A DNA stretch of 64,000 nt from positions 16,762,534 to 16,826,533 of the forward strand of contig CM120644.1 of the NCBI GenBank assembly GCA_051362555.1, given 5' to 3'. Of this stretch, positions 241 through 53,153 are shown in pieces. A program made the translations under genes and the position numbers. Positions within the stretch are counted from its first letter, which is position 1. Every line of letters begins with the position of its first letter. Source of the stretch: Lingula anatina. Lineage: Eukaryota > Animalia > Brachiopoda. The notes under the pieces are model-generated. The model had not been told where the DNA came from. It saw only the letters and a list, made by a program, of their open reading frames with translations, and did not search any database.

Positions 241-709
241 GAGAGACAGAATCTTTGAGAATTTAACAAATTTCTTTTAATCACGGATGTATGTCGTATA
301 CTTATCTAAATAATTGAGAAAATTATAATATACGGTATATATAATATGAGATTGTACTTTGTCCATTATAAGCACGCTGGTCAGCTCCGGTCAGCTCCGA
401 GAAAAGTCAAATTTTAAGATAGAAACACTCAAGTGATTGCATTCAAATTTGGCGTGGGCATTACCTAATGTGCAGGGAGCTTTCAGAAACCAAGCACAGA
501 GACGACTGTGACCCAGGAATCTAGAAAAAGGTCTTTCAAATCGATTCATAAATCAAGATCGAGACAAAGGTAAAGTTGAAATTTATCAGTTGCAGAGATG
601 ATTATGTAAGACTGTGTAACTCTCAATTGTGACAGAACACAAAACAAAGACTGCTCACAAGCACCCTGTGTATACAGACGATCTCAAACCTGTTGGCTAA
701 CTATGCATA

Positions 710-1750
710 ATGACGAAAGGCAAAAGAAAGAGCAGAGGAAGTGGAGGATGTGATATGGAGGGTGCGGAAAATCAAGCGAAGAAAGGATGCCAGATAAACA
801 CCCCGCCCGAAAATAAAGCTACAAGTGAAATTCTACACGAAGCAAATAAAGTGCTACACCATGAAGAAAAAGATGGGGCAGTATTGAAAAGTGACAGGTC
901 ACCAGTGTTTACACTTGAAAACAATGGGAAAAATACAGACCAGGTGACGAAAGAAGATGGGAAAAAAGAATCTGATGCGGTAGCGGGACTTTCGGATAAA
1001 TTAGACAAGGTAATCACAGTTGTCACAGAGCTTCGAAAAAACCAAGATACACTAAAGAAAATGTTCGAATCTAAATTAGACAGGTTTAAGGAAGAAGTTC
1101 TGATGAACATGAACACTAAAATAAAAGCGCTTGGGGATGAGTTGACCCTAGATATCAACAAAGAATCGGCCAGAATAGATGGGGTGTTAAAATCATTGGA
1201 TGATATACAAGAAAGAATTGAGAAACTAGAGGCAAATGGCATCTCCGATACACCAAGTGGAGGAATATGGGAACCAGAATACCCGCCAGACAAGACATGT
1301 GTGATTAGTGGTATGATAGAAGAATGGGGAGAAAATCTGCAAGGGAAATGTGAGCAGCTGATTAGTAAGGGCCTTGGTCTACGGGATACGGTCCCCATAA
1401 GATGTATGAGAATGAAATCTAGCAGCAATAAACCGGGTCTAATAAAGGTACAGATGAAAACTCATGCCGAAAAACTTGACATTCTTAAAGCAAAAGTCAA
1501 GCTTGGGAAGAAAGGCAGCGGGTATGAAAAAGTGTATATTCGGAGTTATTTAACACCAGAGGAATTGAGTAGGAGGCAGACCACAAGGACGCTTCTGAAT
1601 ATGATGCCTAACGGAAGGGATTACAGGTTAACGCGCAATGGTCGGCTGGAAAAAAGAGATACAAACTTGGTGGAAAGCAGTCTTGAACATCAGAGTGGAT
1701 TGAGTCACGGTGGATCGATTCATGGCAGAGCAAATGGTAGTGCACGCTAG
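710..1750 (+). CDS. LINE ORF1 protein (coiled coil plus RRM-like/basic C-terminal region)
   Basis: 346-aa ORF directly upstream of the RT ORF. Heptad-rich middle (LSDKLDKVITVVTELRKNQDTLKKMFESKLDRFKEEV) and C-terminal PGLIKVQM..K..IL..K..L....Y..VYIR motif typical of LINE ORF1p. Confidence 0.8.
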   Translation: MTKGKRKSRGSGGCDMEGAENQAKKGCQINTPPENKATSEILHEANKVLHHEEKDGAVLKSDRSPVFTLENNGKNTDQVTKEDGKKESDAVAGLSDKLDKVITVVTELRKNQDTLKKMFESKLDRFKEEVLMNMNTKIKALGDELTLDINKESARIDGVLKSLDDIQERIEKLEANGISDTPSGGIWEPEYPPDKTCVISGMIEEWGENLQGKCEQLISKGLGLRDTVPIRCMRMKSSSNKPGLIKVQMKTHAEKLDILKAKVKLGKKGSGYEKVYIRSYLTPEELSRRQTTRTLLNMMPNGRDYRLTRNGRLEKRDTNLVESSLEHQSGLSHGGSIHGRANGSAR

Positions 1751-4700
1751 GAAGAGGCCCAGCTACAAAGAAGCACACTTAAAATTGGGCAGTTGAATGT
1801 GTGTGGTTGGACTATAAGGAACGAGGAATTGAGAAAATGTTTAATTAAGGCTTCGGGCTGTGACATAGTATGCATATGTGAAACTCATCTTATTGGAGAA
1901 AAATCATTAGAGATGGACGGTTATAAGTGGCTAGGTTTAAATAGACAATCTCTACATGTAAGAGCCCCTAAGGGATCAGGGGGGGTTGGTGTTTTGATAA
2001 AAAATGATGTGTTAACGGAATACAATGTAACAGTATATGATAAATCTGTGGAAGGGATAATCGGTGTTAGATTTGAGCATATGATATCAGGGTACAGCAT
2101 GTTAGTGTTCTCATGTTATTTACCCCCGGAAAATAGTCCGTGGGGTAGAGATGCAGAATCTTTTTTCTCACACTTGCTAAGTCAAATTTACACCGCAGCT
2201 GATATGGATGCAGTAGTTGTTTGTGGTGATTTCAATTCCAGAATCGGTAATTTACAAGACTGCATTGAGGGAATAGATAACCTTCCAGAGAGAGCCTGTG
2301 TTGATGAAACCGTCAATCAGCACGGTGTGTCTATGATAGATTTCTTAATAGAATCAAAATTCTGTGTATTAAATGGTAGAGTTTCTAAAGAGAAAGACGA
2401 CTTCACTTGTAGAACAGGACGGGGTTTGTCAGTAGTTGATTATATAATAGTAGCTCAAGATATGTTTAGTAAATGTCATAGTATGCACGTATCTCCATGT
2501 AGTGACTTAGTAGAATGTCATCATTTACACTCATTGCTAAACGGCAGATCAAAGGTACCTGATCACGCATTTTTATCATTTGTGCTAGACACACATGTTC
2601 AGTTAACAGAAGAATCAGAGTGCTCAATAGAGAATAACAGTGCTCCAAGTAAGGGTAGAAGGTTTAATTTCAATAAGATAAATGAGAATTTTATGGCATC
2701 TCATATGTGCAGAACAGCAATTTTAAACATAATTGAACGGATACAGTGTAATCGTGAAGAGCAAGAGGATATAGACAGTATATACAGGGATTTTACAGAT
2801 GTTGTTTTAAATGAAATGAATAAAAATATACCCTACTTGGATACATCAAAGAAAATGAGAAAAAAGTGTAAATCAAGAAAACGATTTTGGAACGAGGAGC
2901 TGCACGACTTTTGGCTAGAAATGAACAGACGTGAAAAAGCTGTCCGACGGGCCAAAAATAAAAAAGAGAGACAAGGGCTTTTTAAATTGTTTCGCGAGGC
3001 ACAACATGTGTTCGACAGAAAGTTTAGATTCTTCGAAAGAAAAGACAGATTAGAGAGGTCTACCAACATTGAAGAGTTGCATGCTAGAGACTCTAAGCAA
3101 TTTTGGCAACAAGTGAACAGGTTAGGTCCTCGTAAAAACAAAACCATCCCATTAGAAGTTTATGTTGATGGAAACGTTACCACTGATAAAAACACTGTAA
3201 TAAATAAATGGAGGGATGATTTCCAAATGCTGTACAATAACTATGGGAATAATGAGCCTAGGAAAGACAAACACAAGGCTGACATACAAAATAGTAATAT
3301 TCTGAAAGAGCAATACATGATAGATCCTCTGTACGAAAGTAATGGGATGTTGAATAGAAACATTGATATTAGTGAAATAGTTCGTGTAATAGCTAAAATG
3401 AAAAAAGGAAAAGCACCTGGAGTAGACATGCTGCCCAACGAAGTGTACAAATGTGATAATGCTATTAAAGTTATGCATAAATTATTTCAGTTATGCTTGG
3501 ATTCGGGAAAGATTCCCTCAGTATGGCGGAAGGCAATTATTTGCCCTATTCCAAAGGACAGTAAATTGGATCAGAGGGTTCCTCTGAATTATAGAGGAAT
3601 TAGTTTATTATGTTGCTCAGCAAAAATGTACACGAGTCTTTTAAACGATAGATTAACTGAGTTTTTTGACAACAGAAATGTTCTAGTAGATGAGCAGAAC
3701 GGTTTTCGCAGGGATAGGTCTTGTCAAGATCACATATTTGCCTTGGATTCTATCATAAGAAATAGACTTAATGTTGCATTATCAACCTTTTGTGCTTTCA
3801 TAGACTTTCATAAAGCATTTGATTGCATCGACAGAGATTATTTAATGTACAAATTATTGAGATCTGGTATAGATGGTAAAGTATACTGGGCTATTAGAAA
3901 CATATATGCATTTACAGAAGCTTGTGTTAAGGTAGGAGACATGCAATCTAATTGGTTCAATACTGAATATGGTGTAAGACAAGGTGATAATCTATCACCA
4001 ACCCTATTTGCCTTATATATTAATGATTTAGCGCAAGAGATAAAACGGATCTCGAAAGGTGTTGAAGTAGGAAAAAACGTTGTAGATATATTATTATATG
4101 CAGATGATGTGGTATTTATTGCTCCTACTGAGGAAAACTTGCAAGCTATGCTTGATAAGCTAAGTGAGTGGTCTTATAAATGGAGTTTATTTGTTAACCA
4201 AAAGAAAACAAAAATCGTACATTTTAGAAAACCAGGTGTTGAAAGGAGTAACTTTCAGTTTAATTGCGGTGGAGTGCCACTTGATTATGAAAAGTCTTAT
4301 AAATATCTTGGAGTCACCTTAGTAGAGACACTTAATTATAGTACAAATGCAGATGTGATGTCTTATGCTGCAGGTAGGGCACTGGGTTCCATAGTAGCTA
4401 AGTATAAACATCAAGGATATATGGGGTATTCCACGTACACAAAGCTTTTTGATTCTTGTGTTAGTCCCATTCTAGAATATGCAGCAGGTGTTTGGGGATA
4501 TAATGAATATAAGCAGCTAGATAAAATTCAGTTTAGAGCCGCCAGGGTATTTCTTGGGGTGCACAGATTTACTCCTCTTCTGGCCATAGAAGGGGATATA
4601 GGTTGGATGAATACTAAATATAAAAGATGGTTGCACCTTATAAGATTGTGGAACAGACTTTTGAGCATGAGTGACAATAGGATTACAAAACAAATTTTCA

Positions 4701-5290
4701 TTAGAGATTATGACTTGGCAAAAGAGGGTAACATTAATTGGTGTGCTCATGTCTCTCGAGTCTTAGCTGTTTGTGAAATGGAGCATTTGTTTAATGATTT
4801 AGTTTATTGTGATGTTGGCGTTATAAAGAACATATTATTTAAATTGCAGGAGAGAGCCTGGAAAGAAGCAGTATTAAAAAAACCAAAGTTAAGGGTCTAC
4901 AGAAAACTTAAAGAAAATTTATTTGTGGAAAATTATGTTAAGTACAATTTAAAAGCTGCGGAAAGATCGATCACGGCCCAGTTTAGATCAGGGGTTCTTC
5001 CATTACATGTAGAAACGGGCCGCTTTGTTAACAGAAAATTAGATGACAGACTATGTTTTCTTTGTAACACACAAAAAGTAGAAGATGAGTATCATTTTTT
5101 ATTTGATTGTCCAATTTATAAAGATTTAAGAAAAAAATGGTTTGAAAAAGTAAAAGTGGGTGATCTTATCTTTCATGACCTGGAAGTGGTTAAGGAGAGA
5201 CCTCAAGTGCTTTTTACAGATTTTCATAGAAGCACAGCGAGGTTTCTCTTTAACTGCTTTCAGGTCAGAAAGAAGCTTCTATATAACTAA
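1751..5290 (+). CDS. LINE ORF2: APE endonuclease, reverse transcriptase and CCHC zinc knuckle
   Basis: Endonuclease motifs LNVCG, ICETH, GGVG, GDFN, VDY, PDH. RT motifs KAPGVD, NYRGISLL, QNGFR, DFHKAFD, GVRQG..LSP, YADD, YLG. C-terminal CFLC..EDEYHFLFDC. The frame is open from 1751; the track start at 1793 is TTG, not ATG. Confidence 0.95.
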   Translation, partial: EEAQLQRSTLKIGQLNVCGWTIRNEELRKCLIKASGCDIVCICETHLIGEKSLEMDGYKWLGLNRQSLHVRAPKGSGGVGVLIKNDVLTEYNVTVYDKSVEGIIGVRFEHMISGYSMLVFSCYLPPENSPWGRDAESFFSHLLSQIYTAADMDAVVVCGDFNSRIGNLQDCIEGIDNLPERACVDETVNQHGVSMIDFLIESKFCVLNGRVSKEKDDFTCRTGRGLSVVDYIIVAQDMFSKCHSMHVSPCSDLVECHHLHSLLNGRSKVPDHAFLSFVLDTHVQLTEESECSIENNSAPSKGRRFNFNKINENFMASHMCRTAILNIIERIQCNREEQEDIDSIYRDFTDVVLNEMNKNIPYLDTSKKMRKKCKSRKRFWNEELHDFWLEMNRREKAVRRAKNKKERQGLFKLFREAQHVFDRKFRFFERKDRLERSTNIEELHARDSKQFWQQVNRLGPRKNKTIPLEVYVDGNVTTDKNTVINKWRDDFQMLYNNYGNNEPRKDKHKADIQNSNILKEQYMIDPLYESNGMLNRNIDISEIVRVIAKMKKGKAPGVDMLPNEVYKCDNAIKVMHKLFQLCLDSGKIPSVWRKAIICPIPKDSKLDQRVPLNYRGISLLCCSAKMYTSLLNDRLTEFFDNRNVLVDEQNGFRRDRSCQDHIFALDSIIRNRLNVALSTFCAFIDFHKAFDCIDRDYLMYKLLRSGIDGKVYWAIRNIYAFTEACVKVGDMQSNWFNTEYGVRQGDNLSPTLFALYINDLAQEIKRISKGVEVGKNVVDILLYADDVVFIAPTEENLQAMLDKLSEWSYKWSLFVNQKKTKIVHFRKPGVERSNFQFNCGGVPLDYEKSYKYLGVTLVETLNYSTNADVMSYAAGRALGSIVAKYKHQGYMGYSTYTKLFDSCVSPILEYAAGVWGYNEYKQLDKIQFRAARVFLGVHRFTPLLAIEGDIGWMNTKYKRWLHLIRLWNRLLSMSDNRITKQIFIRDYDLAKEGNINWCAHVSRVLAVCEMEHLFNDLVYCDVGVIKNILFKLQERAWKEAVLKKPKLRVYRKLKENLFVENYVKYNLKAAERSITAQFRSGVLPLHVETGRFVNRKLDDRLCFLCNTQKVEDEYHFLFDCPIYKDLRKKWFEKVKVGDLIFHDLEVVKERPQVLFTDFHRSTARFLFNCFQVRKKLLYN

Positions 5291-7533: not shown

Positions 7534-7697
7534 CATGCCCATAGCCAGGGGGTTCGAAACATCCCCCTTTTTGATTGGAAAAGGTCCACTTTTGGTAAAT
7601 TTGATCTAGGTAAACTGTAGGTTCCATGATAAAAGGTACACATTTTTTTAGAAAAAAAGACCCCCCCCCCTTTTTGCAACTGCTAGCCACGGTCCTG
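7534..7697 (+). mobile_element. MITE family A, copy 1
   Basis: Degenerate TIRs CATGCCCATAGCCAG / CTAGCCACGGTCCTG. Internal GGAAAAGGTCCACT..AAATTTGATCTAG shared with the other three copies. Flanked by CATGTA on both sides. Confidence 0.8.
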
Positions 7698-7708
7698 CAT
7701 GTAGCTGT

Positions 7709-13292: not shown

Positions 13293-13856
13293 GAGGAGCA
13301 ATAGGCTACATGTAAACGCCACCTATTTGGTTTGATTAACTTTTAGATATCTTTTAAAGCTCTATCTTTTCAGTTTATTATTTTAAAATGTTTATTAAAT
13401 GTCCATCAAACAAAATAATTTCACTGGCTGACCCAAGTATTTGTAGGTGGAGGGGGATAGAGGAAAGCACAAGGATAAGAAATTAGTCAGGCTTCCCTTT
13501 CAGATAAAGACAATTTTACTGCCATGGTAACAGGTCTGGAGAAGTGACTTGGTTTTGGCTTTTTTTTTTTTTTTTTTTTTGTTATACTGTGGTTTGGAGA
13601 GTGAGAAGGGGGGTAAGGGGATATCTCAGGGGTTAACTAAGGGGAACATACGTGTCTTCTGTGCCCGCCCCTGGTTTCAAGGTATCCATATTCAGATCCA
13701 CTTGACAAAAATGCGTTTCAAACCTTCCACACTACTCTGGTCTTCCCCTTGTATTTGGCACAGGTATACCGTGGGTCTGTCCATGTTCAGTCGGTAGATA
13801 TGGTAAAACTGGTATTTTTATTGATGTCTTGTCTTGTTATTTCAGAAATACCGTTC

Positions 13857-16800
13857 ATGGTACAGCAACCAGCCAGTATGGCTGACAGCAGGCTTCTACA
13901 GGCTGCAAAGAATGGAGATATACAGAGTTTACAGGAACTGCTGACTGCCGGGGAGTGCAACATCAATGTTCAGGGCAAGGTGACAACATTAATCACTTAA
14001 GTCTTTAGTCACGTCTTTGTCGAGCTATTTAGTATTATTGTAACGGTACACATTTATGTGATTGAAGCAAACGGCCTTTAAAAAATTGGGCTCATTCTCT
14101 TAGTAACTACCTTAGGCCTACCCCTTTCTACTCTCCTAAGTTATACTCCACGGCGTTTATGATATAAATATAACAATAGCTACATATACGGAAAGGGCCA
14201 GATATCGATGTATTGCCAGCAAGAAACACATACCGAGTACGTTTCAGTTTTTTTTTTATATATACACCACATTCAGATGAATTGTTTAGTATTTGGTTTC
14301 GTTCACCGATATGCTTTGGTCTTGGCATTTTTCAATTTTATAAGTTGTTTCCACCCAAACTACTATTGATTTATCATGTTCACGGCGATTCAAGGCTTAT
14401 ACACATCTACAAAGGATTGTGGCGAAGTCTTTAACCAAAATTGTACTAAATTACATTTATCTATACCACAAATTTCATACTAAAGATATTTACCAAATTT
14501 CTGATCACGTATCCTCTTAAAACGTGGCCATTGCTGCGCAGTACGCCCTCTGGGCGGATTTTCATTTGCAAGCGTCATCTGGCTCTAATCTTTACAAATC
14601 GAACATGTCAGTTGCACGTACGCGGTACAGATTATCTCAATATTTCTTTTTTATAATGAGAAAAGTACAAATCACTAACTCAAAGATTTAGTGGGATCAG
14701 ACACATGTATTTTCCAAGTAGAGACATTCCTGTCCTACTTCCTCGCGAAGTTATAAATCACGATTTACATATTCTGCCTAGCGATCTTTCTTTTCAGTTA
14801 TCACTAATTTCTGAAAGCATTTATCGAATCACATTGTTTATACATATCACAGTGCGAATTTCTGCTGATCGGTTTTCCCTTCAAACTGATAATTTTAAAC
14901 CCTTCATGGAAATAAGCATGATTCTGCAACATGAATTATCTGTTTACTCACATTGTTTGTCTATATTCTCAGGATGGCCAGACACCACTTCACCTGTCTG
15001 CCTTCCACGGCCACACACAATGTGTCCAGCTTCTCCTCCAACACGGGGCAGATACCAGTGTACAAGTTAAGGTGAGTGTAGAATATGTTATGCATAGCAA
15101 TATCGCTACACCTGCGTACAACTACATGTCTTTTTCAAAGTTCATTAGAAGTTATTAAACACGGTTTTCATATTCTGCTTAGCGATCTTTCTTTTCAGTT
15201 ATCACTAATTTCTTAAAGCATGTATCGAATCACATTGTTTATACATATCATATTGCAAATTTCTGCTGATCGTTTTTTTCTTTCAAACTGATAATTTTAA
15301 ACTCTACATGGAAATAAGCGTGATTCTGTACCATGAATCATCTGTTTACTCACATTGTTTGTCTATTTTCTCAGTATGGGTGGACATCACTTTACTTGGC
15401 TGCCCAAGAGGGCCACACACAATGTGTCCAGCTTCTCCTCCAACACGGGGCAGATATCAGTATACTTAATACGGTGAGTGTAGAATATTCCAAGCATAGC
15501 AATATTGCTACCCTTGCCTACAACTACATGTCTTTTCCAAAGTTCATTAGAAGTTATTAAACACGGTTTACATATTCTGCTCAGCGATCTTTCTTTTCAC
15601 TTATCACTAATTTCTTAAAGCGTGTATCGAATAACATTGTTTATACATTTCACAGTGCGAATTTCTGCTGATCGGTTTTTCCTTCCAAACTGATAATTTT
15701 AAACTCCACGTGGAAATAAGCATGATTCTGCAACATGAATTATCTGTTTACTGACATTGTTTGTCCATATTCTCAGAATGGCCAGACACCACTTCACGTG
15801 GCTGCCTACCAGGGCCACACACAATGTCTCCAGCTTCTCCTCCAACACGGGACGGATACCAGTATACAGGATAAGGTGAGTGTAGAATATGCTAAATATA
15901 GCAATAAGGCTACACCTGTTTACAACTGCATGTCTTTTCCAAAGTTAAATAGAAGTTATTAAACACGGTTTACATATTCTGCTCAGCGATCTTTCTTTTC
16001 ACTTATCACTAATTTCTTAAAGCGTGTATCGAATCACATTGTTTATACATATCATATTGCAAATTTCTGCTGATCGGTTTTTCCTTTCAAACTGATAATT
16101 TTAAACTCCACATGGAAATAAGCATGATTCTGTACCATGAATTATCTGTTTACTCCATTGTTTGTCCATTTTCTCAGTATGGGGATACACCACTTCACCT
16201 GGCTGCCCACCGGGGCCACACACAATGTGTCCATTTTCTCCTCCAGCACAAGGCAGATACCAGTGTACAAGCTAAGGTGAGTGTAGAATATGCTAAGCAT
16301 AGCAATATCGCCACACAGGCCCGTAGCCAGGGGGGGGGTCGGGGGGTTCGAAAGAACCGCCCTTTTCCTTGGAAAAGGTCCACTCTGGGTAAATTTGATC
16401 TAGTTACATGAAGTTTTTACAGAAAAAAAGGTCCACTTTTCCAGAAAAAGAACCCCCCTTTTGAAATTGCTGGCTACGGGCCTGCCACACCTGCGTACAA
16501 CTAAATGTACATGTCTTTTCCAAAGTTCATTAGAAGTTATTAAACACGGTTTTCATATTCTGCTCAGCGATCTTTCTTTTCACTTATCACTAATTTCTTA
16601 AAGCGTGTACAGATTCTCTCAATATTTCTTCTTTATAATGTGAAAACTACAAATCACTAACTCAAAGATTTCAGACACATGCATTTTCCAAGTAGAGACA
16701 TCCCTGTCCTACTTCCTCGCGAAGTTATAAATCGATTTACATATTCTGCCTAGCGATCTTTCTTTTCAGTTATCACTAATTTCTGGAAGCATTTATCGAA

Positions 16801-19800
16801 TCACTTTGTTTATACATATCACAGTGCGAATTTCTGCTGATCGGGTTTCCCTTTCAAACTGATAATTTTAAACCCTACATGGAAATAAGCATGATTCTGC
16901 AACATGAATTATCTGTTTACTCACATTGTTTGTCTACATTCTCAGGATGGCAAGACACCACTTCACCTGGCTGTCTACCAAGGCCACACACAATGTGTTC
17001 AGCTTCTCCTCCAACACGGGACGGATACCAGTATACAGGATAAGGTGAGTGTAGAATATGCTAAATATAGCAATAAGGCTACACCTGTTTACAACTGCAT
17101 GTCTTTTCCAAAGTTAAATAGAAGTTTTAGTGCACGGTTTACATATTCTGCTTAGCGATCTTTCTATTCAGTTATACATGTAACTTAATGTCTCAAAGCA
17201 CATATCAAACCACATTTTTATACATTGCACCGATCACAGTGAGGATATCTGCTAAGCGATTTTTTGTTTATAGCTTATAATTTTAAACCCGACACGGAAA
17301 TAAGCATGATTCCTCAACATGATTTATTGTGTTTAATCACACTGTCTGAATTGTCTGTTTACTCTCATCAACTTCCCCGAACGGCAATAAGCATGGTTCT
17401 GCAACATGATCTGTTTTACTCACAGTGTCTGTACATATTCTCAGGAAAGCGTTACACCACTTAACCTGGCTGCCTTGTTAGGCCACACACAATGTGTCCA
17501 GCTTCTCCTCCAGCATGGGGTGGATACCAGTATACAGACTACGGTGAGCGTAGAATATGATAAACATAGCAATATCGCTACACCTGTGTACACCTGCATG
17601 TCTTTTCCAAAGTTAAATAGAAGTTTTAGTGCACGGTTTACATATTCTGCTTAGCGATCTTTCTATTCAGTTATACATGTAACTAAATGTCTCAAAGCAC
17701 ATATCAAACCACATTTTTATACATTCTACAGATCACAGTGAGAATATTTGCTAATCAATTTTTTGTTTATTACTGATAATTTTAAACCCGACATGGCAAT
17801 AAGCATCGTTTCCCAACATAATTTATTGTGTTTAATCACACTGTCTGAATTATCTGTTTACACTCATCAACTTCCCCAAACGGCAATAAGGATGGTTCTA
17901 CAACATGATCTGTTTACTCACAATGTTTGTACATATTCTCAGGAAAGTATTACACCCCTTCACTTTGCTGCCGGCCAGGGCCACACAGAATGTGTCCAGC
18001 TTCTCCTCCAACATGGGGCGGATGCCAGTATACAGGCTACGGTGAGCGTAGAATATGCTAACAAGGCAATATGGCTACACCTGTGTTGAACTGCATGTCT
18101 TTTCCGAAGTTAAATACAAGTTTTACGGCACGGTTTACATATTCTGCTTAGCGACCTTTCTCTTCGGTTATATATGTAACTAATTGTCTCAACGCATGTA
18201 TCAAATCACATTGTTTATACATTGCTCAGATCACATTTAGAATTATGCTTACCAATTTTTAGTTTATTACTAATAATTATAATCCGTCAAGGAAATCGCA
18301 ACATAATTTATTGTGTTTAATCACAATGTCTGAATTGTCTGTTTACTCTCATCAACTTCCCGGAACGGCAATAAGCATGGTTCTGCAACATGATCTGTTT
18401 TACTCACAATGTTTGTACATATTCTCAGGAAAGTACAGGGGGTATTACACCCCTTCACTTTGCTGCCGGGCTCGGCCACACACAATGTGTCCAGCTTCTC
18501 CTCCAACATGGGGCGGATACCAGTATACAGGCTTGGGTGAGTGTAGAATATTCTAACCATGGCGATATGGCTACACCTGTGTACAACTGCATGTCTTTTC
18601 CGAAATTAAATAGCAGTTTTTGTACAAGGTTTATATATTTTGCTGAGATTCTCTCTCTTAATGTATCTAAACAAATCAATCATATCCTTAATATACCATA
18701 GTGAAAACTTTTTGGTAACTGATTTTTATTTATAACTGATTACTTTAAACACCCAGAGATTCTACGGCATGAATTGTCTGTTGTCCATATTCTCAGGAAG
18801 AGTGGACACCACTTCACTGCGCTGCCGAGTGCGGCCACACACAATGTATTCAGCTTCTCCTCCAGCATGGGGCGGATACCAGTATACAGAATAAGGTAAG
18901 TGCTAAACAGCCCATGCACAGAAATATGGCTACACCTTTATAAGAATTCATATTGAGACTGTATTATGGGAAAGCACCATTTCACTAAAATGTACTTAAC
19001 GGCTACATTCCCTCCTCATCCAGTAAGTAATATAAGTCTTGCTATTACAGGAGAGAAAGACACCAAGAATGGTGGCAGAGGACAAAGAACACGCTGCCAT
19101 AGTAGAGCTGTTGAGGCGTTTTGAACTACCAGATATACAGGTATACATGTTGTCAGGAACCACAGTATTGAAAAAGTGTAATTAGTACTTGTAAAACTTT
19201 CATACATGATGTTGTATTTATTCAATCGGAGGAAGCCTTTGTCTGTTAAATCCACACTTGGGAATCCAAGGTGTATAAGTTGTTCAGATAATGCTTCACA
19301 CCTTGCAGTTCAAATTGTAGTGTCCTTTGATCCGAAGCCAGTAATATGTTAGAATTTGATTACAGGGTGTTATTAGGACTGATAAAGTTTAGCATAAAAA
19401 CCTGTAAACTTAAATCTAAGAGCGGGGGCAAGAGGTAGAAGAAGAGATGGGAGAGTAAGATGTAGGGTTATCCTATAAAGGGTATTTTATGTAATGTGGG
19501 ACCCCGGGATGGTCTTAAGGGGGTTCCCCACAATGTAGTTCAGTGTGAACATGGTCAGCGCTTAGCCCTTAAATAGCATTGGGTTATGATATATGATATA
19601 TGAGTTTCGATCAGCAGTTGAAATATTCTTATAGTCGCGTAATTGTTTTAAACTATATAGCAGTATATCTTTTACCACATTGATGTTTATTTGTGGTGTT
19701 GAATCTCACGTGTTACATTAATCAGATGTATTCATTGAAAAGATATCCTTAATTTTTAAATTATATGACCAATTATAGTTAAATATGAAGCCTTAGCCCC

Positions 19801-21816
19801 AGAAGGTAGATGTTAAGTGGCCAATATTCCTAGCTTATAATTGCGCACGTCCTGAGTTCATGGGCGATATTTTAATAACTATTTCATCTTATTATGTACT
19901 AGTTCCTGTAAAATAACTTGATGGATATAATCTTTACAGGGGTATATACAGACCAAGACTTTGGAGCACCTTGCTGAACTATTAGATCCTGCTGAATATT
20001 CCATAATTGACCAGACCAACCTCAGCTCGAACTTCCCTGACGTCTTTCAATTTCAGAAAGTGCAGGAACTGAAAGACTGGGCCATCAAGAACAATTGTAC
20101 TAATATTAGAGACTTAAAGATCGGACTGCAGACTGCAAACCTTCCACGACTATCCAGTGAGTAATTGTCTCGCAAACTTATTATTTGGAGATACTTAATC
20201 ATTAATGGTACCTTAAATACTTGTATTCCATAAGTTCGTTGCACCAGCTTACGGAATTACACGGTAAGATTGGAGGTGAAAATGCTAACACATTTCACGG
20301 TCTATCATTTTGTTTTTACATTTCTGTACGTGTACATCTATTGCTGATGTGGTTTTACTGTACAGACCGATGGAATATTTTGGTCAAGATTTATTTTTTA
20401 AAAATGGCAGTGAGCGTTAGTCTGTCTGTCTGTCTACATGTATGAACGGGCATGTCACTGGATCAAATATCTGCGCATTTGCTTTTATTATTTCCAGAAA
20501 TATTCAATAGTGTGTCGTTATTACATTTTACAAAGCATCTAATGATTCATGGTTGCGCACTACCTATCACATCTATTTCCGCATCTTATGAGTTTCCTAC
20601 TTTAAATTATTCTCCCTCACAGATGCAGCAGGGGACTATTATGCTGGGGTGGTGACGGAAATTTCCAACATGGCCCCTGATGAATTTGAAGCCCTGTGTA
20701 GAACCTTGGTCACTGCTAGGCACATGCACACGTCACGTTCGACAACCACTAACCAACAAGAGGCTAGGTAAGTGCAGTTTTGAATGTGAGAGCTAGTAAT
20801 AGAATTAGCTGGGCTATTTTTATTTATCAAAAGGCGCAAGGGATTTTTGCGACATTTGAAAATATTTACATCAACTGCTTTGTTAATCACAAACACTTAA
20901 TATAATTTTGGTTGCAAAAAACACGGCCCACACCCCCGCACCCTAGCTTGATATATATATATATATACCAGGGTGTGTATATATGCATGTTTGTATACCT
21001 CTAAACATTCTCAGTCACGACTTACTTCACATTCACAGTTTGCCTTTGGATCAATGCCTCTACGACCTGTTCATTGCGTACAGCGGCGAGGATGAAGCCA
21101 CAATAGAACCAGTTCTACACCAGCTGAAAGCACTGGGGGTTAAGATTTGGTACGCCAAAGAAGACCTCGTTCCTGGAACACAAGTGATTACTTCCATTAA
21201 TAAGGCGGTCATTGCATCTAAACATACCTTAGCGTTCCTGACCAAGAACTTTGTTCAAAGTCAGTGGTGTCAACTAGAGCTGCAGTATGCCATGCAAGAA
21301 GCTGTTAAGTCGAAAAGAGATGTCCTCATTCCGGTTGTGATGAATCTGTCACCTGAGGAAATTCCTACCGAAATAGGAGGCTTAAAATACACCCTTTTCG
21401 ATGACGAAGAATTGATCCCAAAGCTTTTACAAGCCATTAAAGGTAGTCTAGGTTTTGACTTTTGTACATAAAATTGCCTAACATTTTATATTTTATATGT
21501 GATAGATTGACAAGTCTTAATTTTGCTATTTTTTGTGTATAGATTATTCATGACAGCGGTGGAAAATACATTATTTTTCATCTCGGTTCACATAAATACA
21601 TGTATATCAGTACACTATGAATTTGTTTTTCACCAAAAATTACACCCAGAGTTGTTTCAGATATACATACATCTTTTTTTTTCAGTTAATATAATATCTT
21701 TCTTTAAAACAGGACCACAAGACACACCCACATTTGGTAAACTTCGAGACGAGAACGAGGTTTTACGAGATGAGGTGCGACTGCTGTCATCTAAACTTCG
21801 TCTCCAGAGCCAATGA
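13857..21816 (+). CDS. Ankyrin-repeat / death-domain-like / TIR-domain protein (~660 aa, 15 coding exons)
   Basis: GT-AG exons joining in one frame: 13857-13979, 14973-15071, 15375-15473, 15777-15875, 16178-16276, 16946-17044, 17445-17543, 17943-18041, 18429-18536, 18797-18895, 19051-19140, 19940-20156, 20623-20767, 21039-21442, 21713-21816 (total 1983 nt including stop). Ankyrin consensus G.TPLH.AA..GH..CVQLLLQHGAD; TIR box YDLFIAYS and SQWCQLEL. The death-fold call for 19940-20156 is tentative. The start could instead be ATG 13878. Confidence 0.88.
14625..18900 (+). repeat. Tandem exon-intron array (nine units, period ~402 bp then ~490-500 bp)
   Basis: Exon starts are spaced 402, 402, 401 bp and later 499, 498, 486 bp. 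Intron sequence such as CATATTCTGC..AGCGATCTTTC and GTGAGTGTAGAATA is repeated in the units. Confidence 0.95.
16316..16484 (+). mobile_element. MITE family A, copy 2 (inside an ankyrin-array intron)
   Basis: Perfect TIRs CAGGCCCGTAGCCAG / CTGGCTACGGGCCTG with CCACA duplicated at 16311-16315 and 16485-16489. Sister introns show the empty site (ATATCGCTACACCTG). Confidence 0.95.
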
Positions 21817-24800: not shown

Positions 24801-25850
24801 TGAGGAGGGTTGTAAGGAACACAAAGAGTCGCATGACACAAGGAGTCCACCCTGCATTAAATTCATACAGGTTAGAGTAAGTGAGACGTAAGTGGGTCAA
24901 AATCAAGTAAGGGACTTACTGTACAAGGGGGACTGTGTTGCACATGACTCCTATAAGGTGACAGTCAACGGTACATGGACACTCTCTGACTCTACCCTGC
25001 GTGTCTGCCATATATATATAGTGTGCGTACTAGTAGCCTATAGTACATGATAGTAAAGGCATCACTGCACACTTAGTCAATATATCATCGACGAGACTGC
25101 AGACAAAGTTGGAAACTTATTGAGCACAAGTGGGTCAGTCAATATACTCCACCCGAAGCAAAGGAGTGAGTCGATATGTCGCTAAAAAGTTACTGAAAAG
25201 TGGCTATCAACGCTACATTTATGATACATCACTTATGACCAGGCATGCCGAACCATAGGACGACTATTTCAAGCTTTGTCAATTAAGCGAGATCACACGG
25301 GGTCAAATAGAGGACGCAGTTACCTGTGGCATTTTATACATATATATGAATCGACTACAGAGGTGTTGAGATTCGAGGTGTGTATACTGCTTGCATAGAT
25401 TTATAGACCTTCGGGGGAGATAAAGGAGGTCATTTGGACAAGTGCCCGCAGTTTCTCTTTCAATATCTACCGTATATAGTCTACAATATAAAGTTGAAAT
25501 AGGCTGCGGCATCTGTGGTTTATTTCTATACTTATACTTTCACATTCAGATGTGGGCGGCCCTCATGTGACAGACCAGAATCAATATTTTACTATTCGAT
25601 ATCAAAATAATTGTATCAGTTTTGAAGACTTGGATTAGTCAAGAACTTCTTGGATTAGTGAAGCCTATACGTGTTCGCTAAGTGACCCTGGACTTGGAGG
25701 CGTTTCGTTTCACGTCTCGTGACTACCTCGTGAGTGAGGGAAAAACACATTTCCTTTCTTCTTCGCAACATCCGCCTTCACAACACTATATGAAGACGAG
25801 TCGTGTATTCTGATTTAATATTTGTCTCCTGCACTTAATGAACACTCTCT

Positions 25851-27005
25851 ATGTGTGACAGACTATGTTTATCGTGTCCTTGCTTCGCCAGCATTGGAAG
25901 AAAACTTTCGGCTAAACGGGATCAGATTTTTGATAGCCGCAAATACAAGACCAAGCAAATGGAGGAGAAACTTATTCAGGAGATAGCAAGCGGGGCACCT
26001 GTAGATAAAATAAAACCGACCCTTTTCCTCAACAAGCATGGCCAGGAAGAGATCAAGGTTGAATACCAAACCACTGTCGCTGAAACCGTAGACAAAATGA
26101 GACAAGATGGCTTCCTGGCTACCAGTAAGTTGGTCTTTATTGTGCATGGCTACAGGGACAACGCTCACTCCGGCTGGCTGGTCGAGGCCAAGGACAACTT
26201 GCTGGAACAAAACCCCGATCAGACTGTGGTCTTAGTAGACTGGAGCCGGGGAGCCGACACGGTGATCTATCCCTGGGCTGCGGCGGACACAGCCACGGTG
26301 GGGGCGTGGTTAGGAGCAGTAGCTGACGGAGTACGGTCCAAGTTCCCCGAGATGAAAATTTGGTCGGTAGGGCACAGCCTGGGCGCCCACCTGGTCGGCT
26401 CAGCTGGCAGGCACAGTAAGGGCGCCATCCACCGTGTTACGGGATTAGACCCCGCCGGCCCGCTGTTCGAGAAACATCTCGACGTCGATAAGCGTCTTCG
26501 CCCGACAGACGCCGCAATGGTGGACGTCATCCATACTGACGGCTATGAGACTAACGTAAAGAACGGCGAGAAGAGACATGTTAGCGTCCTCCGGCAAATT
26601 GAAGGTGAACTGTCCGTGGCCGATGCATTGGTTAATCACTTTGGTACTCTCATACCGCTCGGAACGATCGATTTTTATCCAAATTACGGGTATGAACAGC
26701 CGGGCGTAGCACCCTTTCAGACATCTGCGCAACACCATAGGGCGGTTCAGCTGTTTAACTGGAGCATTAAAAACAAAGGGAAGTTCGCGACCAACCAGCT
26801 TCTGGACGGGATCCCAGCGTTTGAAAAACCGGTTAAAAAATTGAAGTCGACCGAAAACTGGGCTGAGATGGGTTGTTACGCCGACCAAAGCTTTTGCCAC
26901 CGTGGTCTGTACTTTATCAGGACAAATCCGACGATACCATGGGCGCCGGCAACGTCGGAGACGTCACGTGATACACCGTCGGAATGGGGATGCAATATTT
27001 TGTAA
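25851..27005 (+). CDS. Pancreatic-lipase-family lipase/phospholipase A1, intronless CDS, C-terminal CaaX
   Basis: 384-aa ORF with IVHGY, VDWSRGA, nucleophile GHSLG, GLDPAGP (catalytic Asp), VDVIHTD, DFYPN.G..QPG and HHRA (catalytic His). No PLAT domain; ends WGCNIL. Confidence 0.9.
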   Translation: MCDRLCLSCPCFASIGRKLSAKRDQIFDSRKYKTKQMEEKLIQEIASGAPVDKIKPTLFLNKHGQEEIKVEYQTTVAETVDKMRQDGFLATSKLVFIVHGYRDNAHSGWLVEAKDNLLEQNPDQTVVLVDWSRGADTVIYPWAAADTATVGAWLGAVADGVRSKFPEMKIWSVGHSLGAHLVGSAGRHSKGAIHRVTGLDPAGPLFEKHLDVDKRLRPTDAAMVDVIHTDGYETNVKNGEKRHVSVLRQIEGELSVADALVNHFGTLIPLGTIDFYPNYGYEQPGVAPFQTSAQHHRAVQLFNWSIKNKGKFATNQLLDGIPAFEKPVKKLKSTENWAEMGCYADQSFCHRGLYFIRTNPTIPWAPATSETSRDTPSEWGCNIL

Positions 27006-33439: not shown

Positions 33440-34492
33440 ACGAATGCGTGTGTGGTGCCATATTGCAACGAGAGCCCATATCGAGAGTTAAAAATATTAA
33501 TTATCATTCCATAATTCGGGATCACTTAAGCAAGTAACATAAACCTATTCATATAGTACACAGCAGTGTAAATGCCATCTTTATCTAAACGGTACGTAAA
33601 AAATTCCAGACCTAAAACGATGTCAGTGAGTTGAATAAATCGGAGAGGAATTGCGTCATTTTAATTCAAGACACGATTGAAGGTTTTATTATTGCCGCGT
33701 CTCAGGCTAATTTCTCACATAGAGAGAAAAGTTTGACACTAGAAATATTTTCCAATCGGATCATAGCTGAAAACAAGTATACTTCACTACAATTGTACAA
33801 TTTTGAATGCTCATTTTACGGCAACAAACAAGATTGCCTTTAGGGCATTTTGAATTCGTCTATGAACAAACATATCAAATTCTCACATAGCTTCCAAATT
33901 GACAGAAAAAATTGTATTTACACTTAATCTCTATAAGTTTATTGTCTCATCCACCCGAAGGATTGACTCACGTTATCGCGAACTACCTGCCAAAATGACA
34001 CAAAAAGTCATCGACAACTGCGATATGCTCGCTACCTGTACGGGAGGTCACGTCATTCGAACGCACGTGGTTTCGCGAAGAGCTCGCGTTAAGCCGATTA
34101 TCCTTTGATCTTGCTCAGCGTTTCTCTTATTATGTCCAAGTTTGAACTCACGAGCCGTGACTGACACATCAGTAAGGCTTTGCTGGCGCATTGTGTGTGA
34201 CATAATATGTACCAGATACAACATGAGTCGTCCACTGTATGCTACATAACAAGAAATATAGGCACAACCGAGATAAAATTTGTTTTGTATGTTGCATGCA
34301 GTGGCTGACGAGTATATTACAGGCATAAATAACAGCCTATATGCGAATTTTAAGTGTAATTATCCTGATGTCCGAAGCGCTAGCCGTGGTATTAAACCTT
34401 ATTTAACCAATAACGATATAGCCGTACGCTCGTTTTGCTGATGGCATTGAAGATACAGAGAAGACACCTGCACTGAGAAGATCACTGACAAG

Positions 34493-36178
34493 ATGAAGCC
34501 CACCTTTGTCTGGTTACGAAGATTTCGTTGCCGAAATCAGTGTTGTTGGACAAGTATAGTTCTATTTATCTCTGTACTTTACGTAAGTATCCTTACATGG
34601 GAAAAGCCACAGACCAACCTTGACAAAGAAACCGTGGCTGCTGCTCTTGATGCGTCTGTTCCAAGTGTAGGACGCAAAATTCAAAATGGCGACAAAAAGG
34701 CGGTAAAACCCACGCCGAACGCTAAAATTTCGCCCAAATCTTCACGTGGTCCGGAAATGAACAGCGAGTTCGACATCCCAGCTATGAGTTTGAAAAACGC
34801 TGACCAGCAAACAAAAATGAAAGTGCTCGAACAGGTCGCTAATGAAACGAACATCAAACGCAGCCTACTTGAAAAGTACGGGTCGGGATGCCAAGTCATG
34901 CTTTTTCTTGACCACAGCGATACGTTTGAGAACCCAGGCAGCATTGCGTGCTACGTGGAGAACACCCTGACCGACTGCAACGATCCAGGCTTCGGGTCGG
35001 CAGTGTTGTACTCGGTGGAGGTCCTGACGTCTTGCCTTGTACTGGGAGCCTCGCCGGTGGTCCAGTGGTACAACTGCGATTTCTGCGGTGCGGAGTCCAA
35101 GCAGCCGACAAATCATTTCTTATCCTTCTTTCAAGATCTTGAAACGAAGACCGAAACTGAAGCAGAGCACAAACTTTGCATTGCATCGGGTATTCCAGAA
35201 GCTGGACCATACGGTGAAGGCGATTTGGTGGATCTAAGTTTTGACACCAAAGCGAGAAACTTTGCCTTTCGTGACTATCAACCTGATGAAAAGATTACTA
35301 ATAGTACAAGGCTCTTGGCGCATTATGTACTGACTAAATATTTTAAACCAGTGGAACATATCAGGAATTATGTTGAGGATACATACAATAAAAAGATGAA
35401 AGGGTATTTGAACATTGGAATCCACGTTAGAGCCACAGACAGCTGGAAAGAAGTGAAAAGGGTGACTTCGCTAGAACATTGGATTTTTGAGACTAAAAAG
35501 GTCATCAAGGCAGTGTTAAGGTCAGATGATGTAATTCTTCAAATATTTAAAAGAAAGGGTTTGAACGAGAAACTCTATCCTGTCAGTGACGAGTCTATAA
35601 GGATATTTTTGGCCACTGACAATGCAGAGACAATTCTACGTTTTAAGAAGGAGTTTGGCCGTCTGGTGTTTTGGAATAATGTCGACAAGGTGGCAAGCTT
35701 TGATGCAGATGGCCGCCTTTGGTACAAGGACAATCGCATTGCAGTTGCCAATGCTAGGGTGGTCCTTCAGGACGTTCTTATGTTAGCCAAGTGTGATCTG
35801 CTTTTACACGGAGAATCCAGCATATCCGCTCTGGCTCACTATCTTAACCTCGATTTGGTGAGTTATTATATTAAGGCAGAAGAACCCGGGGTTTGGTTGC
35901 CAACAGCGACGCCGCCTGAGACGCGTGCCCAACTGAAAGCTGAGGTAGAAAAGATGTTAAACTCTGCTCGAAATCGCATATCCAAATTTAGAGTGAACAA
36001 TATCACAACTGTCATGGACGGCTGTGAGCTGAACAGGATGCCTAAAGTGTATAACTGGATAGATACTGCGATTTGCTTTGGTAGACATCGTTTTAAATCC
36101 CAATGCTTGAATACACGAAATCTCACCTTGTCTACTCTAGATGAGGTCATAAAATTAAGTCGAAAACCACTGGTTTAG
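34493..36178 (+). CDS. FUT8/NodZ-like (GT-B) fucosyltransferase-family type II membrane protein, copy 1
   Basis: 561-aa intronless ORF with N-terminal TM helix and stem. Motifs GIHVRATD, IFLATD and DVLMLAKCDLLLHGESS correspond to the three conserved motifs of alpha-1,2/alpha-1,6/O-fucosyltransferases. Confidence 0.82.
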   Translation: MKPTFVWLRRFRCRNQCCWTSIVLFISVLYVSILTWEKPQTNLDKETVAAALDASVPSVGRKIQNGDKKAVKPTPNAKISPKSSRGPEMNSEFDIPAMSLKNADQQTKMKVLEQVANETNIKRSLLEKYGSGCQVMLFLDHSDTFENPGSIACYVENTLTDCNDPGFGSAVLYSVEVLTSCLVLGASPVVQWYNCDFCGAESKQPTNHFLSFFQDLETKTETEAEHKLCIASGIPEAGPYGEGDLVDLSFDTKARNFAFRDYQPDEKITNSTRLLAHYVLTKYFKPVEHIRNYVEDTYNKKMKGYLNIGIHVRATDSWKEVKRVTSLEHWIFETKKVIKAVLRSDDVILQIFKRKGLNEKLYPVSDESIRIFLATDNAETILRFKKEFGRLVFWNNVDKVASFDADGRLWYKDNRIAVANARVVLQDVLMLAKCDLLLHGESSISALAHYLNLDLVSYYIKAEEPGVWLPTATPPETRAQLKAEVEKMLNSARNRISKFRVNNITTVMDGCELNRMPKVYNWIDTAICFGRHRFKSQCLNTRNLTLSTLDEVIKLSRKPLV

Positions 36179-40377: not shown

Positions 40378-40622
40378 TTTGCAATAATCTCCAAATAGAT
40401 TATTACGGAAGTATGGCCATCTGTGGAGGTCCACGTGGCATGATGGCAAACATGGATACCAGAATAATTGCGATAACCGCTTTTTGAAATATAGAAATTA
40501 ATTGTACAGTCAAGATCACGTAGGAATGAAATAGGACTTCGTGGCATTGCACACATGTTAGCATATATTGATACAGTTTGTTTTTTTTTTTTAACGGACG
40601 GCGGATGATATGCATAAGCACG

Positions 40623-53096: not shown

Positions 53097-53153
<57 letters not shown>

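What the first reader, a model, noticed from the sequence alone, without database searches (positions are those of the whole stretch)
13857..21816. Candidate diversifying innate-immune receptor: one-repeat-per-exon ankyrin array with hypervariable binding positions, fused to death-like and TIR domains
Seen: nine phase-0 exons (eight of 99 bp, one of 108 bp) each encode one ankyrin repeat. The scaffold GHTQCVQLLLQHGADTS is nearly invariant, even at DNA level. Variation concentrates at exon positions 1 and 3 (D/Q, Y/W, N/Q, Y/D, D/K, E/V, E/I, E/W), 11-12 (FH, QE, YQ, HR, YQ, LL, GQ, GL, EC) and 32-33 (VK, NT, DK, AK, DK, TT, AT, AW, NK). Established: positions 1, 3, 11, 12 and 33 are five of the six randomised contact positions of DARPin libraries; repeat shuffling diversifies fungal NLRs and Ectocarpus LRR/TPR-exon genes. 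Inference: a cytosolic (no signal peptide or TM) natural DARPin-like sensor whose specificity can change by exon gain, loss, conversion or in-frame skipping. I cannot confirm novelty without a search.
Basis: partly seen in the sequence, partly recalled or inferred. Interest (0 to 1): 0.88.

Follow-up and report, generated by a model that had tools for sequence, protein, structure and literature searches.

The report
Brachiopod hypervariable ankyrin-death-TIR sensor family
This lamp-shell (Lingula) gene builds its binding surface from nine duplicated one-exon ankyrin repeats whose predicted contact residues change about six times faster than the rest, and joins them to a predicted death-fold domain and a TIR domain, so it is likely one of a family of variable intracellular immune sensors whose targets and activity are untested.

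Summary
Observation confirmed. Fifteen GT-AG exons give an intact 660-aa protein without a membrane helix: N-cap, nine phase-0 ankyrin exons, C-cap, a death-fold domain (predicted; best match FADD death domain, Z 9.1), TIR, coiled coil. All relatives that share the middle domain are Lingula anatina proteins: up to 20 loci with 0-14 repeats, seven apparently clustered. The duplicated unit is exon plus intron, so recent duplication explains the near-invariant scaffold. It does not explain the contact codons: 9 of 12 first/second positions vary among units 1-5, against 27 of 183 intron columns (P=1.5e-5). A codon model gives omega 6.3 against 0.69, but cannot separate this from a 5.6-fold higher total rate. 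RNA reads show the family is expressed and carry further contact variants. Rearranged unit orders exist in DNA. Exon skipping of this gene, allele-level variation and any immune function were not shown. It evolves like fungal NLR ankyrin arrays and Ectocarpus one-repeat-per-exon receptors but has no NTPase domain, so it is not an NLR. The key Lingula immunity paper was not readable. The scan had not noted this elsewhere.

The parts
13857..13979 (+). Coding exon 1: N-terminal capping ankyrin repeat (start codon at 13857 or 13878)
   Evidence: Weak Ank hit, E=0.038; 66-79% identical to the N-termini of P0002, P0003 and P0009; RNA cover mainly in X17
14973..15071 (+). Ankyrin exon, unit 1 (99 nt, phase 0)
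   Evidence: Ank E=3e-11
15375..15473 (+). Ankyrin exon, unit 2
15777..15875 (+). Ankyrin exon, unit 3
16178..16276 (+). Ankyrin exon, unit 4
16316..16484 (.). 169-nt MITE-like insertion in the intron after unit 4, with 15-nt perfect terminal inverted repeats
   Evidence: other copies in the window; very high contig depth
16946..17044 (+). Ankyrin exon, unit 5; mosaic: upstream intron closest to unit 1 (5 of 199 differences), 127-nt tract identical to unit 3
17445..17543 (+). Ankyrin exon, unit 6
17943..18041 (+). Ankyrin exon, unit 7
18429..18536 (+). Ankyrin exon, unit 8 (108 nt; 3 extra codons near its start)
18797..18895 (+). Ankyrin exon, unit 9
   Evidence: aligns in register with DARPin internal repeats
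19051..19140 (+). C-terminal capping repeat exon
   Evidence: 57-87% identical to 9 of 9 relatives tested; splice to 19940 seen in 4 of 4 RNA runs
19940..20156 (+). Death-fold domain, first part (predicted)
   Evidence: model made from the orthologous stretch of P0001; the middle domain as a whole is 84% identical
20623..20767 (+). Death-fold domain, last helices, and linker (predicted)
   Evidence: splice to 21039 seen in X11
21039..21442 (+). TIR domain exon; alphaC Cys and Glu present
   Evidence: splice to 21713 seen in 4 of 4 RNA runs
21713..21816 (+). Last coding exon: short predicted coiled coil and stop codon
   Evidence: HALZ E=0.012, below the cut-off; helix 287-312 in the P0001 model

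Best explanation
The gene encodes a cytosolic protein of a Lingula-restricted family in which an array of one-exon ankyrin repeats is joined to a predicted death-fold domain, a TIR domain and a predicted coiled coil, and it likely acts as a variable intracellular immune sensor. Shown: the repeat unit is exon plus intron (about 400-500 nt). Units have been duplicated in tandem and partly exchanged. Repeat number differs across the family, and the contact codons change about six times faster than neighbouring codons and introns. Inferred: unequal crossing-over and gene conversion in the germ line make and homogenise the units, while diversifying selection keeps the concave-face residues different, giving each gene a different binding surface. 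Inferred and untested: ligand binding would cluster the protein, and the death-fold and TIR domains, in the same order as in MyD88, would then recruit death-domain and TIR partners to signal defence or cell death. NAD cleavage by the TIR is possible but not indicated.
For: Architecture. Contact codons chosen by DARPin numbering: 9 of 12 first/second positions vary against 27 of 183 intron columns in units 1-5 (P=1.5e-5), and 7 of 12 against 35 of 221 in units 6-8 (P=0.0015). Scaffold positions do not differ from intron (14 of 54, P=0.07; 6 of 54, P=0.52). Units 2 and 4 differ at 9 of 199 intron bases but at 6 of 12 bases of codons 1, 3, 11 and 12. Fixed-site codon model: omega 6.3 against 0.69, likelihood-ratio statistic 33.2. 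Across 50 repeats (41 RefSeq plus the 9 here) the five most variable positions are 12, 11, 1, 3 and 33, and 51 of 52 RefSeq repeats have a unique contact string. Paralogues P0162 and P0007 share 290 of 303 C-terminal residues, but their best-matching repeats share 6 of 25 contact residues against 123 of 140 scaffold residues. The family is expanded and clustered and expressed from the + strand. The same evolutionary regime marks fungal NLR ankyrin repeats (PMC4986451, passages) and Ectocarpus LRR/TPR exons (PMC3341825, passages).
Against: No functional data at all. The excess cannot be separated from a locally raised total rate (x5.6 with omega=1; P=0.16). A codon model fitted to the six codons alone gained only 0.11 log units over a fit with one parameter set to 1, and I could not confirm that this parameter was omega. 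The tree-based tests ignore recombination, and the sample is 9 short repeats. These positions are the variable ones in ankyrin repeats generally (recalled). Scaffold omega of 0.69 is high, so constraint is weak. The close pair P0016/P0158 shares 9 of 10 contact residues, so not every duplicate diverges there. The death-fold match is modest (Z 9.1, rmsd 3.5, 89 aligned; profile E=0.039; no Pfam hit). Paralogues P0005, P0006 and P0013 lack the alphaC Glu.
Confidence: 0.6

Rival explanations
1. Allorecognition or guard receptor: same architecture and evolution, but the variable surface tracks polymorphic self or conspecific proteins, or guarded host proteins, as fungal HET-type repeat proteins do, rather than microbial molecules.
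For: The sequence signature is the same. The fungal paper ties this repeat regime to non-self recognition (PMC4986451, passages). A cytosolic location suits guarding.
Against: Lingula is solitary and not known to fuse (recalled). A dispersed family of up to 20 loci fits a repertoire better than one allorecognition locus.
Confidence: 0.15
2. Neutral or relaxed tandem expansion of an adaptor gene: slippage and unequal crossing-over multiply a symmetrical exon, surface residues drift because they are unconstrained, and conversion homogenises the rest.
For: Any phase-0 exon with its intron can duplicate in frame. Scaffold omega is 0.69. The animals are very polymorphic: runs X5 and X9 differ by 2.6-7.3% even within the neighbouring lipase gene. 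A raised-rate model fits as well as selection.
Against: Drift cannot exceed the neutral rate, yet contact positions carry 19 minimum changes where intron resampling gives 4.3 (0 of 200,000 resamples reach it). Codons 4, 6 and 13 are invariant at all three bases, right beside the hot codons 3, 11 and 12, which a regional mutation effect would not give.
Confidence: 0.12
3. Somatic or splice-level diversification: each animal or cell makes many receptors from one locus by in-frame exon skipping or somatic rearrangement.
For: All repeat exons are phase 0. RefSeq isoforms X1 (P0010) and X2 (P0004) of one paralogue differ by exactly three repeats. RNA reads show skips and go-backs among units.
Against: All 9 distinct ankyrin joints decoded carry letters foreign to the window, so they come from other alleles or paralogues. 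Unit rearrangements also stand in DNA contigs. In the isoform pair both donor repeats end in the same residues, so mis-mapped reads could produce the short form. No clean skip joint appeared among the 15 of 26 RNA joints shown.
Confidence: 0.1
4. Self-contained NADase effector: ligand-induced assembly switches on SARM1-like NAD cleavage by the TIR, with the death fold only as a scaffold.
For: The alphaC Glu is present here and in 8 of 11 relatives in which the motif was found. This Glu is required for NADase activity (PMC9153377, passages). The bacterial TIRs PdTIR and AbTir are among the sequence hits.
Against: The best sequence hit is the TLR15 TIR, which has the same Glu; TLR TIRs are scaffolds (recalled). 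Three paralogues have lost the Glu.
Confidence: 0.2

Closest known systems
Fungal NLRs with highly conserved ANK/TPR/WD repeats, e.g. Podospora Pa_3_8560 (PMC4986451, passages read)
   Same: Near-identical ankyrin repeats, variation in repeat number, concerted evolution, and diversifying change on the concave face (five selected ANK positions there).
   Different: No NACHT or NB-ARC domain here; repeats are N-terminal and split one per exon; the effector end is death fold plus TIR; an animal. Repeat-number polymorphism between alleles is shown there and not here.
Ectocarpus ROCO-LRR and NB-ARC-TPR genes (PMC3341825, passages read)
   Same: One repeat per phase-0 exon, exon duplication and shuffling, positively selected concave-face sites, clustered family, immune role inferred but not proven.
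   Different: Ankyrin instead of LRR/TPR and no GTPase or NB-ARC domain. No spare repeat exons on the opposite strand or in introns were found by the motif scan or tblastn.
MyD88 (death domain + TIR adaptor)
   Same: Death fold followed by TIR, cytosolic.
   Different: Carries its own variable ankyrin array and a C-terminal coiled coil. The TIR is no closer to MyD88 (E=1.6e-4) than to TLR or bacterial TIRs (E=1e-13 to 1e-8). Multi-copy and lineage-restricted.
Oomycete ankyrin repeat-TIR proteins (PMC9153377, passage) and animal ANKDD1A / CARD-ANK inflammasome adaptor (cluster names; listing)
   Same: Ankyrin repeats fused to TIR or to a death-fold domain.
   Different: Each has only one of the two signalling domains by name. 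No sequence homology outside the repeats was detected. Their repeat diversification was not examined here.
DARPins (designed ankyrin repeat proteins; PMC8683736 and PMC8229355, passages read)
   Same: Self-compatible near-identical framework between N- and C-caps with variable concave-face residues; the register was confirmed by alignment.
   Different: Natural and genome-encoded. Position 31 (a randomised DARPin site, recalled) is nearly fixed, while positions 32, 8 and 2 vary. Binding not tested.

Membership tests
NLR / STAND receptors (incl. fungal ANK-NLRs) | Central NACHT or NB-ARC NTPase domain | tested here: not met
   The 660-aa model is fully accounted for by ANK (1-371), a 120-aa helical domain, TIR and tail. 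No NTPase family among the precomputed Pfam domains of the relatives.
NLR / STAND receptors (incl. fungal ANK-NLRs) | Superstructure repeats under concerted evolution with diversifying contact sites | tested here: met
   (selection not separable from a raised local rate)
NLR / STAND receptors (incl. fungal ANK-NLRs) | Repeat-number polymorphism between alleles of one locus | tested here: inconclusive
   Contigs are too short to phase and paralogues confound them
Ectocarpus-type exon-shuffling receptors | One repeat per phase-0 exon of constant length | tested here: met
   9 of 9 phase 0; 8 of 9 are 99 nt
Ectocarpus-type exon-shuffling receptors | ROCO or NB-ARC module with LRR or TPR repeats | tested here: not met
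   Ankyrin, death fold and TIR instead
Ectocarpus-type exon-shuffling receptors | Spare or inactivated repeat exons in introns or on the opposite strand | tested here: not met
   The motif scan of both strands and tblastn found only the nine in-frame exons in the window; other loci not examined
Death-fold superfamily domain | Six-helix bundle matching solved DD/DED/CARD/PYD structures | tested here: met
   Model pLDDT 89, six helices. Best match FADD DD, Z 9.1, rmsd 3.5, 89 aligned; 14 of the top 17 entries are named death-fold structures. Profile best PDB hit Fas DD, E=0.039. The subfamily is unresolved and Z is modest for a helical bundle.
MyD88 | Orthology of the TIR and death domains to MyD88 | tested here: inconclusive
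   No phylogeny with MyD88 was built. Sequence search ranks MyD88 TIR far below TLR and bacterial TIRs; MyD88 DD Z 5.0.
TIR NADases (SARM1/plant/bacterial type) | Catalytic Glu in helix alphaC | tested here: met
   also present in TLR TIRs, so not diagnostic
TIR NADases (SARM1/plant/bacterial type) | NAD hydrolysis on oligomerisation | not testable with these tools
   needs an enzyme assay
Toll-like / membrane TIR receptors | Signal peptide, ectodomain and membrane helix | tested here: not met
   Highest 19-residue hydropathy mean 1.06; an undetected upstream coding exon is not excluded
Somatically diversified receptors (VLR-like or splice-diversified) | Many receptor forms per locus within one animal | tested here: inconclusive
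   RNA runs are from animals whose genotype is not matched to the window; 150-nt reads span at most one joint

The most novel reading that the evidence does not exclude
Lingula has evolved a natural DARPin library: a family of intracellular receptors wired directly to a death-TIR signalling module, whose binding surface is re-dealt by swapping whole ankyrin exons between units and genes and also, within an animal, by in-frame exon skipping, giving an anticipatory receptor repertoire in a lophotrochozoan.
Probability: 0.15. Interest if true: 0.88.

Novelty: new variant of a known kind. Interest (0 to 1): 0.62.

Why it matters
Repeat-based variable receptors with concerted evolution and selected contact sites are documented in fungi (inside NLRs) and brown algae. 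This is the same solution in an animal, built from ankyrin exons, with no NTPase switch and with a MyD88-like death-TIR output in one chain. If the sensor role holds, it adds a new architecture of cytosolic pattern-recognition receptor. It also gives a compact test case for how invertebrates widen recognition without lymphocytes, since repeat order and contact residues can be typed by one long amplicon per locus. And it shows natural selection varying five of the sites that protein engineers chose to randomise.

Tried and rejected
No whole genome is held, so family size rests on RefSeq proteins. No RNA holder was listed by index; raw RNA runs with the same species label were laid instead. Allele-level test: X1 and X2 hold pieces with 0 differences and may be the animal the window was assembled from, so they are not independent. 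X5 and X9 differ about as much in the lipase control (15 of 588, 11 of 230, 24 of 350; 22 of 431, 31 of 427) as in the TIR exon (17 of 228; 19 of 246), and no ankyrin-spanning piece was listed among the 32 of 14,027 pieces shown, so allele and paralogue could not be separated. Pfam found no death family in 15 of 15 middle domains. Foldseek gave no match at E of 0.001 or less, although death domains filled ranks 1-4. The IQ-TREE partition test was uninformative and was replaced by the shared-branch model. In one search, rows of the exact-tract list for neighbouring units that begin at the same coordinate are overlap artefacts and were dropped; only the unit 3/5 (127 nt) and unit 2/4 (85 nt) tracts were used. 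Regex repeat counts miss atypical repeats (P0007 5 of 7; second clade 0). Sequencing artefact or pseudogene was rejected: the frame is intact, splice joints appear in RNA, and X1 and X2 hold contig pieces with 0 differences. Horizontal origin was not supported: the gene is intron-rich and its close relatives are all Lingula. No complex prediction was run, because no specific partner is claimed. Literature: 'ANK-TIR' 0 papers; the six-term one-repeat-per-exon search, at least 5 terms, 0 papers. Searches listed no title on this family, and the passages read in PMC8195603, PMC6321704, PMC11463336 and PMC4595640 (0 hits for ankyrin, TIR or Toll in its main text) do not describe it. No supplements were read. 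Gerdol et al. 2018 on Lingula immunity (PMID 29278680, seen only as a reference) is not held and may already list ankyrin-TIR proteins.
Full report
1. What is in the sequence. A motif scan of both strands finds nine ankyrin exons on the + strand between 14973 and 18895, eight of 99 nt and one of 108 nt, each between AG and GT and in phase 0. With an N-cap exon (13857-13979), a C-cap exon (19051-19140), two middle exons (19940-20156, 20623-20767), a TIR exon (21039-21442) and a last exon (21713-21816), the model has 14 of 14 GT-AG introns and an open frame of 660 codons; its highest 19-residue hydropathy mean is 1.06, so there is no membrane helix. Pfam confirms Ank and TIR_2 (E=4e-24) and gives nothing significant for the middle exons.

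2. The unit of duplication. Tandem Repeats Finder reports periods of 402 nt (3.9 copies, 88%) and 499 nt (3.5 copies, 86%), so exon and intron duplicate together. The 200 nt upstream of units 1-5 differ by 3-10%, those of units 6-8 by 10-11%. Unit 5 is a mosaic: its upstream intron is closest to unit 1 (5 of 199 differences), while a 127-nt tract across the exon's 3' half and the next intron is identical to unit 3. This points to unequal crossing-over or conversion (inference). A 169-nt element with 15-nt perfect inverted ends sits in the intron after unit 4. The near-invariant scaffold is therefore mostly a sign of youth: scaffold first/second positions vary no differently from intron columns (14 of 54 against 27 of 183, P=0.07; 6 of 54 against 35 of 221, P=0.52).

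3. Is the variation more than chance? I fixed six codons beforehand by DARPin numbering (exon positions 31, 33, 1, 3, 11, 12). The list of randomised sites is recalled; the register with DARPin repeats was checked by alignment, and the papers read state only that the randomised sites lie on the concave binding face (PMC8229355, PMC8683736, passages). Among units 1-5, 9 of 12 first/second positions vary against 27 of 183 intron columns (P=1.5e-5); among units 6-8, 7 of 12 against 35 of 221 (P=0.0015). Over units 1-8 the six codons carry 19 minimum changes where intron resampling gives 4.3 (0 of 200,000 reach it), and 0.05% of random six-codon sets are as divergent. A fixed-site codon model with shared branch lengths gives omega 6.3 for these codons and 0.69 for the rest (likelihood-ratio statistic 33.2). 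However, a model with omega=1 and a 5.6-fold total rate fits almost as well (P=0.16), and a fit to the six codons alone was uninformative. So about sixfold faster change is shown. Selection is the inference, favoured because invariant codons (4, 6, 13) lie directly beside hot ones (3, 11, 12). Positions 8, 32 and 2 also vary; position 31 hardly does.

4. The family. The TIR exon's closest relatives are RefSeq proteins of the brachiopod Lingula anatina (78-90% identity). Searches gave 20 distinct records with the same death-like and/or TIR part (list); some may be uncollapsed alleles. Seven share a longest-contig length of 212,496, six of them with near-consecutive accessions, which suggests one tandem cluster. 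Repeat counts run from 0 (possibly truncated models) to 14; the window has 9. In a tree of the C-terminal part the window groups with P0001 (98/94). In the search of 1.84 billion representatives, the hits among the best 150 that cover the middle domain and were looked up are all Lingula, and the middle-domain profile found 10 proteins among 7,995 candidates scored, all Lingula. Weaker relatives elsewhere are not excluded. Across 50 repeats (41 RefSeq, 9 window) the five most variable positions are 12, 11, 1, 3 and 33, and 51 of 52 RefSeq repeats have a unique contact string. P0162 and P0007 share 290 of 303 C-terminal residues, yet best-matching repeats share 6 of 25 contact and 123 of 140 scaffold residues (5 of P0007's 7 repeats were captured). 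Against this, P0016 and P0158 share 9 of 10 contact residues.

5. The middle domain. A model of the matching stretch of P0001 from 15 sequences has pLDDT 89 and six helices. Against 48,161 chains its best match is the FADD death domain (Z 9.1, rmsd 3.5, 89 aligned), and 14 of the top 17 entries are named death-fold structures. The sequence profile's best PDB hit is the Fas death domain (E=0.039), and language-model neighbours are Death/DED clusters at 0.76-0.79, a lead only. Each signal is modest, Pfam finds nothing and Foldseek has no significant hit, but they agree. The TIR folds as a TIR and keeps the alphaC Glu, as do 8 of 11 relatives with a readable motif; P0005, P0006 and P0013 lack it. 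The Glu is needed for NADase activity (PMC9153377, passages) but is also present in TLR15, the best sequence hit.

6. Expression and diversity in reads. Four RNA runs from three studies (6-25% of each run read) cover the exons; in the three stranded runs first mates lie on the minus strand, which in most such libraries means RNA from the + strand. Joints 19140|19940 and 21442|21713 appear in 4 of 4 runs, and 20767|21039 in X11. Most reads are 90-99% alike, so they come from other alleles or paralogues. Of 26 joints 15 were shown, and of 47 rows of inserted letters 12. The 9 distinct ankyrin joints among these, read with window flanks as context, all carry foreign letters. Examples are G or K or V at position 1, A, Y, M or L at position 3, L or R at position 33, and G-R at 11-12; two are end-of-array forms that join a unit-1-like or unit-7-like repeat to the C-cap. 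These show more contact variants in the population, not skipping. DNA contigs also hold other unit orders (X5 15244 to 18711 and 18576 to 15213; X1 and X2 18756 to 14919). The one hint of skipping is the RefSeq pair P0010/P0004, isoforms of one locus that differ by exactly three repeats; both donor repeats end alike, so mis-mapping could explain it. Alleles of this locus could not be phased.

7. Mechanism. Shown: architecture, tandem exon-intron duplication, a mosaic unit, family expansion, faster change at contact codons, expression of the family. Inferred: germ-line unequal crossing-over and conversion re-deal the array while selection diversifies the concave face. Inferred and untested: ligand binding clusters the protein, helped by the coiled coil, and the death-fold and TIR domains recruit partners as MyD88 does. 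I put this at 0.6. Rivals, not all exclusive of it: NADase output 0.2, allorecognition or guarding 0.15, neutral expansion 0.12, somatic or splice diversification 0.1.

8. Comparison and novelty. It evolves like fungal NLR ankyrin arrays (PMC4986451, passages) and is built like the Ectocarpus one-repeat-per-exon genes (PMC3341825, passages), but it is a member of neither: it has no NACHT, NB-ARC or ROCO module and no spare exons in the window. Ankyrin-TIR fusions are noted, uncharacterised, in oomycetes (PMC9153377, passage), and ankyrin-death fusions exist in animals (names). Searches found no description of this family; most subscription papers are outside the library, Gerdol et al. 2018 on Lingula immunity was not held, and no supplements were read, so the domain architecture may already be listed. 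The scan's earlier notes hold nothing like it by sequence or place, and one unrelated protist ankyrin-kinase-TIR note by words.

9. Verdict. A real, expressed, lineage-restricted family with a clear signature of diversifying binding surfaces; a new variant of a known kind. Interest 0.62, or 0.88 if within-animal diversification were shown (probability 0.15).

Noticed in passing
window 701-5287 (+): LINE-like retrotransposon with two long open frames (349 and 1179 codons; endonuclease and RVT_1 domains), apparently intact.
   Followed up: partly
window 34141-36377 (+) and 40412-42653 (-): Inverted duplicate (91% identical over 2.26 kb) of an intronless gene of about 580 codons with a weak NodZ / fucosyltransferase match (E=9e-6 and 6e-7).
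   Followed up: partly
window 25842-27002 (+): Lipase-family gene in one 387-codon open frame with no apparent intron (Lipase E=3e-42); could be a retrocopy or a transferred gene. Used here only as a divergence control.
   Followed up: partly
window about 47200-54600 (-), probably extending further: Multi-exon polycystin-like gene: PLAT, Polycystin and PKD channel domains.
   Followed up: partly
window 16316-16484; copies near 7548-7698, 55222-55388, 58342-58518: High-copy MITE-like element, 169 nt with 15-nt perfect inverted ends; abundant in RNA and DNA runs.
   Followed up: partly
proteins P0015, P0120 versus P0002-P0013: The two clades of the family each have their own homogenised ankyrin scaffold, a sign of concerted evolution within clades. 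Unit 2 of the window and a P0003 repeat share an unusual Ser-Leu-Tyr variant of the TPLH motif.
   Followed up: partly
proteins P0016, P0158, P0009, P0120: Family members modelled without a TIR domain (P0016 and P0158 join the death fold directly to the coiled coil); possible decoys or regulators, or truncated models.
   Followed up: no
window 13846-13856: A splice acceptor lies 11 nt before the first ATG, so an upstream exon (UTR or coding) probably exists; not located.
   Followed up: no
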